This document shows, one piece after another, positions 48,396-61,265 of a DNA stretch of 64,000 nt. Below the pieces are notes generated by a model. It saw only the letters and a program-made list of their open reading frames with translations. It was not told the origin of the DNA and searched no databases. The position numbers and the translations under genes are program-made. The number at the start of each line of letters is the position of its first letter. The first letter of the stretch is position 1. The stretch is from NCBI GenBank assembly GCA_964510945.1, contig CAZEED010000002.1, positions 144,924-208,923 of the forward strand, read 5' to 3'. The DNA is from an uncultured Candidatus Saccharibacteria bacterium. Lineage in GTDB: Bacteria > Patescibacteriota > Saccharimonadia > Saccharimonadales > JAGQNJ01.

Positions 48396-48471
48396 GCCAC
48401 CGTAGCTCAGTTGGTAGAGCAACACATTCGTAACGTGTAGGTCAGCAGTTCAATTCTGCTCGGTGGCTCCA
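48396..48471 (+). tRNA. tRNA-Thr (anticodon CGT), discriminator U, CCA encoded
   Basis: GCCACCG-TA-GCTC-AGTTGGTA-GAGC-A-ACACA-TTCGTAA-CGTGT-AGGTC-AGCAG-TTCAATT-CTGCT-CGGTGGC-T-CCA. There is one A-C mismatch at 31:39. Confidence 0.88.
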
Positions 48472-48533
48472 TGTTGCTGTTAACAGATAAAACTGCTATC
48501 ATTTCACTTGTTCGCTTTTTAGCTATTTCAGGT

Positions 48534-48710
48534 GCATCACACACGTGCATTTGAGCATAATAGCGTTGTTCTTGTCGAGGAAACGGAACAAGACGTACAA
48601 ATGGTACGGCGAAGTGAGTACCGCAGATAAAACAGCGGTAGGATGCCGAAAGTTTAACAGTGATGTTAGCTTGGCTAACATGCAGGTTAAACAGTGCACA
48701 TGTGTGATGC
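48534..48710 (+). ncRNA. Candidate structured RNA (~177 nt) abutting the 5' end of tRNA-Asp
   Basis: GCATCACACACGTGCA (48534-48549) pairs 15/16 with TGCACATGTGTGATGC (48695-48710). The closing helix encloses at least three hairpins, including GTTTAAC-agtg-ATGTTAGC-ttg-GCTAACAT-gcag-GTTAAAC. Confidence 0.4.
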
Positions 48711-48788
48711 GGGCCCGTGGTGTAGCTGGCCTAACACGCCTCCCTGTCACGGAGGAGATCGCCGGTTCGAATCCGGTCGGGCCCGCCA
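48711..48788 (+). tRNA. tRNA-Asp (anticodon GTC), CCA encoded
   Basis: GGGCCCG-TG-GTGT-AGCTGGCCTA-ACAC-G-CCTCC-CTGTCAC-GGAGG-AGATC-GCCGG-TTCGAAT-CCGGT-CGGGCCC-G-CCA. Confidence 0.93.
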
Positions 48789-48789
48789 T

Positions 48790-48822
48790 GAAAAGAGAGT
48801 CACCTTGAGTGGCTCTTTTTTC
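48790..48822 (+). terminator. Rho-independent terminator after tRNA-Asp
   Basis: AAAAGAGAGTCAC-cttga-GTGGCTCTTTT (with G-U pairs) followed by a TTTTTT run. Confidence 0.7.
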
Positions 48823-48879
48823 ATGCTGTGTCTCGATTGAATTCGAATTAGGCGATGTGGATTTGCCTTTGGCAAAGAC

Positions 48880-48966
48880 GCGAATCGTCGGTTCGGTCAT
48901 CAAGCCCGCGCACAGAAGCTTGCTTCGAGCATAGGTGTAGATGTGCGGAGAAGGCCAAGCCCGCCA
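48880..48966 (+). pseudogene. Two degenerate tRNA-Asp 3'-end fragments
   Basis: 48880-48912 (GCGAATCGTCGGTTCGGTCATCAAGCCCGCGCA) aligns to GAGATCGCCGGTTCGAATCCGGTCGGGCCCGCCA of tRNA-Asp. 48953-48966 is GGCCAAGCCCGCCA. Confidence 0.4.
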
Positions 48967-60898: not shown

Positions 60899-61230
60899 AG
60901 CCAGATTATTGACTAATCGCTCGCTTTAACGTGGGAGGAAAGTCCGGGCAACGTAGAGAAGGGTAGTTGTTAACGACAACCGGGGGCAACCCTAGGGAAA
61001 GTGCCACAGAAACAAAACGTCCTTTTATAGGTCACGGTGAAAAGAGTGGGGTAAGAGCCCACAGTTTGCGATGGTGACATCGTAAAGAGGTAAACCCTAC
61101 CTGTTGCAAGGAGTATATTCACAAAATGGTTTCTCGCCAGAATATACGATGATCCGCTTGATTCTATCGGCAACGATAGAACTAGATAGATGATTAGTCA
61201 CGACTAAACCCGGCTTATAGATAATCTGGC
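60899..61230 (+). ncRNA. rnpB: RNase P RNA (bacterial type A)
   Basis: P1 pairs GCCAGATTAT with ATAATCTGGC. P4 is GGAGGAAAGTCCGGGC with AAACCCGGCTTATAG. AGTGCCACAGAAA is also present. The antisense ORF 60970-61173 is spurious. Confidence 0.9.
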
Positions 61231-61231
61231 A

Positions 61232-61265
61232 TTAAATAATCCTCAGTAAATTGAGGATTATTTAA
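61232..61265. terminator. Bidirectional terminator between rnpB and rplT
   Basis: TTAAATAATCCTCA-gtaaat-TGAGGATTATTTAA (a perfect 14-bp stem) with A/T-rich flanks on both sides. Confidence 0.8.

What the first reader, a model, noticed from the sequence alone, without database searches (positions are those of the whole stretch)
48534..48710. Closed, multi-hairpin ~177-nt RNA candidate fused to the 5' end of tRNA-Asp
The 240-nt spacer between tRNA-Thr and tRNA-Asp is not simple filler.
- GCATCACACACGTGCA (48534-48549) is complementary to TGCACATGTGTGATGC (48695-48710) at 15 of 16 positions. The 3' strand ends exactly 1 nt before G1 of tRNA-Asp.
- One enclosed hairpin is GCGTTGTTC...GAACAAGACG (48563-48595).
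- Two competing hairpins follow: GGTAC-GGCGAAGTGA-GTACC, or TACCGC-AGATAAAACA-GCGGTA.
- A long irregular hairpin, GTTTAAC-AGTG-ATGTTAGC-TTG-GCTAACAT-GCAG-GTTAAAC, spans 48652-48692.

RNase P cleavage of the tRNA-Asp precursor would release this unit with a defined 3' end. I could not find SRP domain IV, tmRNA or 6S hallmark motifs in it. The two ORFs in the track here (48523-48903 on the minus strand and 48545-48808 on the plus strand) run through tRNA-Asp and are spurious.
Basis: seen in the sequence. Interest (0 to 1): 0.55.

Follow-up and report, generated by a model that had tools for sequence, protein, structure and literature searches.

The report
Mobile folded repeat in tRNA-Asp leader
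The tightly folded 177-base stretch in front of tRNA-Asp is real, but it is one copy of a roughly 175-base folded insertion element scattered through the tiny genomes of Saccharibacteria (between genes, inside genes in frame, and against the ends of tRNA and rRNA genes), not a one-off RNA gene.

Summary
Bases 48534-48710 fold far better than shuffles, and the closing helix pairs at 15 of 16 positions and ends 1 nt before tRNA-Asp.

The interpretation needs changing. A covariance model built from this copy finds a second copy in the same genome, in frame inside a dihydrouridine synthase (Dus) gene. It finds 1-20 copies in 20 of 24 genomes of the family and hits in 99 of 151 genomes of the order. 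All three helices covary strongly, although median pairwise identity is only about 47%.

Copies fall into four settings:
- in frame inside housekeeping genes;
- antisense, directly against stop codons;
- sense, against start codons;
- flush with the mature ends of tRNA, 16S, 23S and 5S genes.

The tRNA-Asp site is occupied in five genomes but empty in both same-genus relatives.

This is a Rickettsia-palindromic-element-like insertion element. Here it sits between the tRNA's own promoter and its 5' end, and is most likely removed as leader by RNase P.

This scan has already reported what appears from its descriptions to be the same kind of element in other Saccharibacteria genomes (shared family not confirmed by sequence). 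I found no paper on it.

New here: the element's 3' end, not its 5' end, abuts gene boundaries, and the closing helix pairs through native stop codons.

The parts
48396..48471 (+). tRNA-Thr(CGU), the upstream neighbour; not part of the element
   Evidence: ARAGORN and Rfam tRNA, 65.8 bits
48494..48502 (+). Extended -10 promoter-like motif TGCTATCAT of the tRNA-Asp transcription unit. The -10 hexamer TATCAT lies 37 nt upstream of the element.
   Evidence: Read from the sequence. The same TG-n-TAnnnT motif lies 24-39 nt upstream of all tRNA-linked copies in other genomes. The simple sigma-70 scan did not list it because there is no -35 match, so its function is inferred.
48534..48710 (+). The element: one copy of the ~175-nt three-helix structured repeat family (model R1, 163 bits, full length 1-178)
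   Evidence: Fold z = -6.7. R1 hit G000:C2:193457-193633 corresponds to window 48534-48710. Covariation on 31 aligned copies (A4): 89.6% of cells paired against 61% in shuffles, and 60 of 63 pairs with changes on both sides.
48534..48549 (+). P1 5' strand of the closing helix
   Evidence: Inverted repeat I1, 94% complementary. Helix 1 has 14 of 14 pairs with compensatory changes.
48551..48650 (+). P2, a long irregular arm with conserved internal loops and the apical hairpin CGTAC-AAATG-GTACG (48594-48608)
   Evidence: RNAalifold consensus; helices 2-5; nearly invariant CGTA...TACGG
48652..48692 (+). P3 hairpin: outer stem, conserved AGTG/GCAG internal loop, 8-bp inner stem, triloop
   Evidence: Inverted repeat I2. 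In helices 6 and 7, 15 of 16 pairs have compensatory changes.
48695..48710 (+). P1 3' strand. Its last bases GATGC match the end of the leader in element-free same-genus genomes (...ACGATGC).
   Evidence: The empty allele is also seen in run X4.
48711..48788 (+). tRNA-Asp(GUC) with encoded CCA; its G1 directly follows the element
   Evidence: ARAGORN; Rfam tRNA, 63.7 bits
48787..48825 (+). Terminator-like hairpin (GAGTCAC-CTTGA-GTGGCTC followed by TTTTTT) closing the tRNA-Asp unit
   Evidence: Inverted repeat I3, arms of 17 nt, 88% complementary; sequence. The simple terminator scan did not list it, so its function is inferred.

Best explanation
The 177 nt are a resident copy of a ~175-nt structured insertion element that is widespread in the Saccharibacteria order. 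Its closest known kind is the Rickettsia palindromic elements (RPE).

Architecture of the family:
- A closing helix P1 whose sequence differs from copy to copy.
- A long arm P2 with conserved loops.
- A hairpin P3 with a conserved AGWG/GCAG loop.

This copy lies inside the 5' leader of tRNA-Asp, between the tRNA's own promoter and the mature 5' end. It is therefore transcribed with the tRNA and cut off by RNase P as a long, structured leader (inferred). No role of its own is needed.

Shown: the family, the structure, the covariation, the contexts, and presence/absence between close relatives.

Inferred: co-transcription, RNase P release, lack of a separate function, and translation of the in-frame copies.
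For: 1. Multi-copy family. R1 finds a second full-length copy in the same genome inside a Dus ORF (115 bits). It finds 1-20 copies in 20 of 24 family genomes and hits in 99 of 151 order genomes.

2. The Dus copy is an exact 174-nt (58-codon) in-frame insertion. It is absent in both same-genus genomes and in most relatives.

3. About 15 of 81 copies studied lie in frame inside long ORFs. All lie on the coding strand. In the seven whose frame was checked, six use the same element frame and the seventh (the DinB-like copy) the adjacent one. These seven sit in Dus-, exonuclease III-, LigA-, GltX-, Tgt- and DinB-like genes (my reading of motifs) and one unidentified ORF.

4. At the tRNA-Asp site, both same-genus genomes have tRNA-Thr and tRNA-Asp 53 nt apart with no element. 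A sludge RNA-library contig carries that empty allele.

5. The site is occupied in G000, G014, G012, G006 and G037. All have the tRNA promoter upstream of the element.

6. Structure is conserved and sequence is not. Median pairwise identity is 47.5%, 89.6% of cells are paired, and 60 of 63 pairs show changes on both sides.

7. There is no Rfam match.

8. RPEs are ~150 bp, multi-family, and frequently fused in frame into unrelated genes (PMC10969869).
Against: - Copies are far more diverged from one another (about 47% identity) than in a recently active MITE family.
- No partner enzyme was found: no reverse transcriptase (RT), Y1 transposase or DDE_3 domain in G000, G003 or G013, although G003 has 20 copies and G013 has 16.
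- No terminal inverted repeat of fixed sequence and no target-site duplication were seen.
- Helices keep pairing by compensatory change even among same-site copies in different genera. That suggests either selection on the fold after insertion or an unknown copying bias.
- The tRNA-Asp-linked copies are more alike across genera (60-79% identity) than other same-site sets (46-60%).
- The 3' end sits flush against gene boundaries much more often than the 5' end. Random selfish insertion does not predict this.
Confidence: 0.68

Rival explanations
1. The family is a modular RNA 'boundary' element. Its closing helix, placed exactly at the end of a neighbouring gene, would act in the transcript as an entry site or a block for ribonucleases. 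It would thereby help define or protect mature ends: the 5' ends of tRNA-Asp, 5S and 16S, the 3' end of 23S, and mRNA 3' ends at the stop codon. The tRNA-Asp copy would then be a working processing cassette.
For: - The 3' end is flush (0-4 nt) with the Rfam-defined 5' ends of 16S, 5S and tRNAs. In antisense it is flush with the 23S 3' end.
- Of 22 gene tails within 150 nt facing the 3' end, 19 have the stop codon within -12 to +3 nt of the model's 3' end, and none lies at 4-30 nt. For the 5' end the figure is 3 of 23.
- About 14 sense copies end at a start codon.
- In 11 of 19 stop-adjacent copies P1 pairs through the native stop codon and at least one further base of coding sequence (at least 4 native bases in all). 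At one orthologous site the 5' arm covaries with TGA versus TAG.
- Same-site copies keep the fold by compensatory change.
Against: - Close relatives manage without the element at the same sites.
- In-frame copies inside ORFs have no boundary to define.
- G.U exceeds A.C on the element's own strand even where that strand is antisense to the adjacent gene: 85 against 32. This does not fit folding within that gene's mRNA.
- There are no RNA end data.
Confidence: 0.15
2. The tRNA-Asp-linked copy is a stand-alone small RNA gene. In one variant it is the expressed 'master' copy of the family. It would be released by RNase P with a defined 3' end and act in trans, or serve as the RNA source of new copies.
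For: - It has a dedicated promoter and terminator around element plus tRNA.
- The site is occupied in five genomes of five genera and two families.
- These copies are the best conserved same-site set, at 60-79% identity, with near-invariant P2 loops.
Against: - It is absent in both same-genus genomes and in most family genomes that keep tRNA-Asp.
- No RT was found in G000, G003 or G013.
- The tRNA-Asp copies are not the closest to the family consensus.
- The promoter is the tRNA's own and is present in element-free relatives.
- No transcript evidence was obtained.
Confidence: 0.08
3. It is a cis-regulatory leader (riboswitch-like or T-box-like) controlling tRNA-Asp output.
For: It has a structured leader position and conserved internal loops in the tRNA-Asp-linked copies.
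Against: - The same fold occurs in dozens of unrelated contexts, including inside ORFs and antisense behind genes.
- There is no Rfam riboswitch or T-box match at E <= 10.
- No alternative terminator/antiterminator pairing is evident.
Confidence: 0.03
4. It is an intron-like element that removes itself from transcripts.
For: A closing helix brings the two ends together, and copies sit inside essential genes.
Against: - The in-ORF copies found all keep an open frame on the coding strand. Six of the seven whose frame was checked use the same element frame. Translation requires this; splicing does not.
- No copy was seen splitting a gene out of frame, though this was not searched for systematically.
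- There is no group I or group II match in Rfam.
- Many copies are antisense to their neighbours.
Confidence: 0.02

Closest known systems
Rickettsia palindromic elements (RPE-1 to RPE-10; Ogata et al. 2000/2002 as summarised in PMC10969869)
   Same: - Short (~150-180 nt), strongly folding, dispersed, with no gene of its own and no known mobilising enzyme.
- Many copies are fused in frame into unrelated housekeeping genes, adding a related peptide.
- Found in small, host-dependent genomes.
- Presence/absence differs between close relatives.
   Different: - There is no sequence relation, and the phylum is different (Saccharibacteria).
- The fold is a three-way junction with conserved internal loops rather than a simple palindrome.
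- The closing helix differs at every site.
- Copies are very diverged (about 47% identity).
- There is a marked habit of lying flush, by the 3' end, against stop and start codons and against the mature ends of tRNA and rRNA.
Bacterial MITEs and structured intergenic repeats (ERIC/IRU, Correia/CREE, BOX, RUP, Coxiella QMITE; PMC10969869, PMC5896051)
   Same: Small non-autonomous repeats that fold as RNA. They are co-transcribed with neighbours, can be intragenic, and can alter transcript processing or stability.
   Different: - MITEs are defined by conserved terminal inverted repeats, target-site duplications and a related IS. None of these was found here.
- Here the termini are the least conserved part.
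REP/BIME and REPIN elements with RAYT (HUH Y1) transposases
   Same: Structure-based extragenic palindromes placed just after stop codons. The effects on mRNA 3' ends are recalled from memory.
   Different: - REPs are 20-40 nt and need a RAYT.
- No Y1 transposase domain was found in G000, G003, G013, G006 or G012.
- This element is 175 nt and also sits inside ORFs.
Integron attC sites
   Same: Conserved as a strand-specific folded structure rather than as sequence, and placed directly at or over the stop codon of the adjacent gene in one orientation (from established knowledge).
   Different: There are no cassette arrays, no R-box motifs and no integron integrase context. Copies occur inside genes and in tRNA and rRNA leaders. 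This is an analogy only.
RNase P-defined 3' ends of upstream RNAs (MALAT1/mascRNA; bacterial tRNA-linked small RNAs)
   Same: A tRNA immediately downstream would let RNase P create the exact 3' end of the upstream RNA.
   Different: In those cases the upstream RNA is a dedicated gene with a known function. Here it is a repeat copy, and its release is only inferred.

Membership tests
RPE-like in-frame structured insertion elements | Short (~100-180 nt), dispersed, multi-copy repeat with a strong hairpin-type fold | tested here: met
   Copies are 171-186 nt, with 1-20 per genome in 20 of 24 family genomes and hits in 99 of 151 order genomes. Fold z = -6.7. Covariation.
RPE-like in-frame structured insertion elements | Copies inserted in frame into unrelated conserved genes, adding a related peptide | tested here: met
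   The seven examined copies sit in Dus-, ExoIII-, LigA-, GltX-, Tgt- and DinB-like genes (my reading of motifs) and one unidentified ORF. Six are read in the same element frame, the DinB-like one in the adjacent frame, and the full-length inserts are about 58 aa. The Dus insert is exactly 174 nt against the empty site.
RPE-like in-frame structured insertion elements | Sequence homology to a described RPE family, or occurrence in Rickettsia | tested here: not met
   The host is a different phylum (Saccharibacteria). No direct comparison with RPE sequences was run, and I do not know whether Rfam holds an RPE model (no Rfam family of any kind matched). So it works like an RPE but is not a member of those families.
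RPE-like in-frame structured insertion elements | The inserted peptide is translated and tolerated in the host protein | not testable with these tools
   Only inferred from the open frames. No proteomic data or structure was examined.
MITE (miniature inverted-repeat transposable element) | Conserved terminal inverted repeats shared by all copies | tested here: not met
   The P1 strands are complementary within a copy but differ between copies. All 14 P1 pairs vary on both sides.
MITE (miniature inverted-repeat transposable element) | Target-site duplication | tested here: inconclusive
   No direct repeat is seen at the Dus filled/empty pair. Palindromic CTAG/TA at some stop-codon junctions could mimic a TA duplication, but this is not general.
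MITE (miniature inverted-repeat transposable element) | A related autonomous IS or transposase in the genome | tested here: not met
   No RVT_1, Y1_Tnp or DDE_3 domain was found in G000, G003 or G013. Only RT fragments at contig ends were found in G006 and G012. Other transposase families were not searched.
Known structured RNA genes (6S, SRP RNA, tmRNA, RNase P, riboswitches, ribozymes in Rfam 15) | A match to the family covariance model | tested here: not met
   There is no hit in the spacer at the gathering threshold or at E <= 10. RNase P RNA lies elsewhere in the window, at 60901-61233.
Stand-alone small RNA gene | Single conserved locus with its own discrete transcript | tested here: not met
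   It is multi-copy and context-independent and absent at this locus in the same genus. Whether a transcript exists is not testable here, because the runs are contigs only.

The most novel reading that the evidence does not exclude
The family is more than selfish DNA. It is a structure-defined element whose closing helix is built against, or selected to pair with, the very end of the neighbouring gene: stop codon, start codon, or mature tRNA or rRNA terminus. Either it works in these minimal genomes as a portable RNA end-defining or end-protecting module, or it inserts by a mechanism that reads gene or RNA ends. No such mechanism has been described for bacterial repeats.
Probability: 0.17. Interest if true: 0.75.

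Novelty: new member of a known kind. Interest (0 to 1): 0.4.

Why it matters
- It corrects an attractive but wrong reading: a new RNA gene fused to a tRNA.
- It adds a defined covariance model and about 80 analysed copies to an element family that seems unreported in the literature, although this scan has met it several times.
- The family inserts 58-residue loops into essential enzymes and sits at the ends of every class of stable RNA in ultra-small symbiotic bacteria. It therefore affects gene calling (spurious ORFs, 'extra' protein loops), searches for non-coding RNA in candidate-phyla (CPR) genomes, and ideas on how reduced genomes tolerate mobile DNA.
- The asymmetric, boundary-flush placement, and helices that pair through native stop codons, give a concrete and testable clue to how the element inserts or what it does.

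Tried and rejected
- **Known RNA families.** Rfam at the gathering threshold and at E <= 10 gave nothing in the spacer. The idea that this is the genome's missing 6S, SRP RNA or tmRNA was dropped once the element proved multi-copy. None of those RNAs was found anywhere in G000. No SRP54 or SRP_SPB protein domain was found either, so an SRP RNA is not expected.
- **Expression.** The one run search gave contigs only. X1 (probably DNA, possibly the source sample) covers the whole stretch. The RNA-library contigs X2 and X3 cover only the tRNAs and the downstream flank. X4 carries the element-free allele. There is no evidence either way for a stable ~177-nt RNA.
- **Orientation relative to strand composition.** Flank GC skew follows the orientation of neighbouring genes, not of the element (38 of 81 positive). 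No replication-strand signal is separable here.
- **A promoter carried by the element.** Only the tRNA-linked copies have a consistent extended -10, and that is the tRNA's own.
- **IS630-type TA or CTAG target duplication.** It fits some stop-codon junctions but not the tRNA-Asp or Dus copies, nor L089 or L091. No DDE_3 domain was found.
- **Closing helix made from an inverted copy of the target.** This fits the outer 4-9 bp at stop codons. It does not fit Dus, where both P1 strands lie inside the 174-nt insert. It also does not fit the tRNA-Asp site, where five genomes have different P1 sequences.
- **Inverted copies forming one long processing duplex.** The head-to-head copies in the 23S-5S spacer, and the G003 copy upstream of the unannotated conserved RNA paired with the copy at the 23S 3' end, are only 45-50% identical to each other.
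- **Retro-insertion at RNA 5' ends.** No RT was found in G000, G003 or G013, and stop-codon placement is not an RNA end.

Full report
**1. The observation**

ARAGORN and Rfam place tRNA-Thr(CGU) at 48396-48471 and tRNA-Asp(GUC) at 48711-48788. The 16-nt arms 48534-48549 and 48695-48710 are 15/16 complementary, and the 3' arm ends at tRNA position -1.

The 177 nt fold at -69.6 kcal/mol against -43.8 +/- 3.8 for dinucleotide shuffles (z = -6.7). The opposite strand also folds well (z = -7.4). No Rfam family matches the spacer, even at E <= 10. The two ORFs crossing tRNA-Asp are not genes.

**2. It is not single-copy**

BLAST in the window's own genome (833 kb, 8 contigs, 97% complete) gave one short extra match. 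That match is a diverged second copy lying in frame inside a 391-aa tRNA-dihydrouridine synthase (Dus) ORF.

In relatives, both same-genus genomes have tRNA-Thr and tRNA-Asp only 53 nt apart with no element. Three other genera of the family carry a 76-78% identical element directly upstream of tRNA-Asp.

RNAalifold on those four sequences gave a three-way junction. Of 57 pairs, 26 keep pairing through changes on both sides.

A covariance model (R1: 178 positions, 63 pairs) gave these results:
- exactly two copies in the own genome;
- 1-20 mostly full-length copies in 20 of 24 genomes of the family;
- hits in 99 of 151 sampled genomes of the order.

The counts include G004, an unpublished genome. 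It had no hit, and no specific claim rests on it. Earlier notes of this scan identify the genome as Candidatus Saccharibacteria.

**3. Structure**

The measures below come from 31 copies aligned to the model:

| Measure | Value |
|---|---|
| Pair cells forming standard pairs | 89.6% |
| Same, in column shuffles | 61% |
| Same, with partners slid | 32-39% |
| Pairs with changes on both sides | 60 of 63 |

This alignment is fitted to the model, which favours the structure. The independent MAFFT/RNAalifold result agrees.

Median pairwise identity among 81 copies is only 47.5%. The conserved letters lie mainly in loops:
- TTG after P1;
- CGTA...TACGG at the P2 tip;
- CCAARAG;
- AGWG/GCAG and GGCTCTGCC in P3.

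G.U pairs outnumber A.C mismatches about 2:1 on the strand given, in every context class. So that strand is the one whose fold is kept.

The proposed inner hairpins are replaced by the long arm P2.

**4. Contexts of the 81 copies**

- About 15 copies lie inside long ORFs, all on the coding strand. In the seven whose frame was checked, six are read in the same element frame and the seventh (the DinB-like copy) in the adjacent one. The full-length inserts are about 58 residues. Six of the seven sit in Dus-, exonuclease III-, LigA-, GltX-, Tgt- and DinB-like genes (my reading of motifs); the seventh ORF was not identified.
- The Dus insert is exactly 174 nt relative to the same-genus genes and to about 20 other orthologues.
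- G003 keeps a remnant at the same Dus site. G003 and G013 have a second, independent copy 27 residues further on.
- Nineteen copies lie antisense with their 3' end on the stop codon of the neighbouring gene.
- Four lie antisense with their 3' end on the 23S rRNA 3' end.
- Eleven lie in sense with their 3' end on the 5' end of a stable RNA: tRNA-Asp four times, two other tRNAs, 16S once, and 5S four times. Rfam coordinates overlap the element by 0-4 nt.
- R1 then found a fifth tRNA-Asp-flush copy in G037, a genome of another family.
- About 14 more end at the start codon of a downstream gene.

**5. The asymmetry**

| Gene tails within 150 nt that face... | Stop codon within -12 to +3 nt of the model end | At 4-30 nt |
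|---|---|---|
| the element's 3' end (22 tails) | 19 | 0 |
| the element's 5' end (23 tails) | 3 | 4 |

For a conserved gene ending ...WYYY, the stop codon is at the same place with or without the element. So the stop is native.

Yet in 11 of 19 such copies the perfect outer part of P1 includes at least 4 native bases: the stop codon and up to 6 further bases of coding sequence. Chance pairing of four further bases has a probability of about 0.02 per copy (my estimate, 0.375^4).

At one orthologous site, G015 has TGA and G020 has TAG, and the 5' arm of the element matches each.

In the window's own copy, the last five bases of P1 (GATGC) are also the last bases of the leader in the element-free same-genus genomes. 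I could not explain this pattern. Several mechanisms were tried and did not fit all cases (see Tried and rejected).

**6. This copy**

An extended -10 motif (TGCTATCAT, 48494-48502) lies 37 nt upstream of the element. The equivalent motif precedes every tRNA-linked copy, and also precedes tRNA-Asp in element-free relatives. A hairpin plus a T-run follows the tRNA.

So the unit is promoter, about 30 nt, element, tRNA-Asp, terminator. Co-transcription and removal of the element by RNase P are inferred from this layout. RNase P RNA is present at 60901-61233.

Public runs gave contigs only. One probable DNA run holds the whole stretch, and RNA-library contigs cover only the tRNAs and the flank. 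One sludge contig carries the empty allele with the same-genus type of leader.

**7. What it is**

The best match in kind is the Rickettsia palindromic elements: ~150-bp folding repeats with frequent in-frame fusions into unrelated genes (PMC10969869).

It is not a member of those families. It also fails the MITE definition:
- the termini are not conserved;
- no clear target duplication was found;
- no RT, Y1 or DDE_3 partner was found in G000, G003 or G013.

A full-text search returned no paper on such an element in Saccharibacteria.

This scan has already reported what appears to be the same kind of element in other Saccharibacteria genomes. Those reports describe about 160-180 nt, three arms, intergenic and in-frame copies. 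My results agree with them independently. A search of the scan's earlier notes by shared short words found no look-alike stretch for a related tRNA-Asp-linked copy, and for the window's own copy only a note on this same window. That is expected at about 50% identity, so 'same family' rests on the descriptions.

Two earlier notes differ from what I see:
- One called adjacency to a tRNA a coincidence. Here, flush placement at stable-RNA 5' ends recurs 11 times among the 81 copies, and a twelfth such copy turned up later.
- One reported orientation following strand composition. I could not see this in these data.

**8. Verdict**

Interest is moderate. The kind is known and has been found before by this scan. 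The boundary-flush placement and the pairing through stop codons are unexplained and testable.

Noticed in passing
whole genome G000 (window = C2:144924-208923): No SRP RNA (small or large), no SRP54-type GTPase domain (Ffh/FtsY) and no SRP_SPB M domain were found. No 6S RNA was found by Rfam, and no tmRNA by ARAGORN. The genome is 97% complete, and all controls rang. Either the SRP pathway is missing or its parts are too diverged for these models.
   Followed up: partly
L047:1530-1790, L114:875-1135, and G000:C3:78234-78510 (L150:1501-1777): A conserved ~258-nt non-coding stretch closed by a 17-bp helix with two compensatory changes. It holds a C/A-rich single-stranded core with anti-Shine-Dalgarno-like motifs (CACCUCC, CCACCUC). 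It is 89% identical between two genera and 72% identical to G000, with no Rfam hit. In G020 and G003 an element copy lies flush against its 5' end, as at known stable RNAs. It is a candidate unannotated RNA gene.
   Followed up: partly
G000:C2:834-1009 (minus strand; outside the window): The second copy of the element in this genome: a 174-nt, 58-codon in-frame insert in the Dus gene. It is absent in the same genus. G003 keeps a shortened remnant at the same site, and G003/G013 have another full copy 27 residues downstream.
   Followed up: yes
L115:5627-6842, L116:111-990, L119:88-989 (23S-5S spacers of G013, G003, G011): The 23S-5S spacer holds two element copies head to head. One is antisense and flush with the 23S 3' end. 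The other is in sense and flush with the 5S 5' end. The two copies are only about 50% identical, so they do not form one long duplex.
   Followed up: partly
L004:380-835 and L009:2399-2854: A conserved 151-aa ORF with an HNH-nuclease-like CxxC...HxDGNxxNN...CPNC motif (my reading; no family search was run) lies between the element/tRNA-Asp and tRNA-Thr in G014 and G006. It is not present in G000 or G012, so it is not tied to the element.
   Followed up: no
window 48495-48706 (run X4): A sludge metatranscriptome-library contig joins 48495 to 48706 through 24 nt that match the leader of the element-free same-genus genome G002. Filled and empty alleles of this locus therefore coexist in public environmental (sludge/digester) samples.
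   Followed up: no
window 48880-48966: Short stretches resembling the tRNA-Asp 3' half lie downstream of its terminator (ATCGTCGGTTCG at 48884-48895 against ATCGCCGGTTCG in the tRNA). Another first-stage note on this window flagged the same thing. Not examined here.
   Followed up: no
L128 (G008:C1, after the stop of the ...WYYY gene): G008 has no full element behind this gene, but it keeps the same 11 nt after the stop codon (CGCACTGTGCC) that form the P1 3' arm of the full copy in its sister genome G015. This is either a deletion remnant or the ancestral sequence.
   Followed up: no
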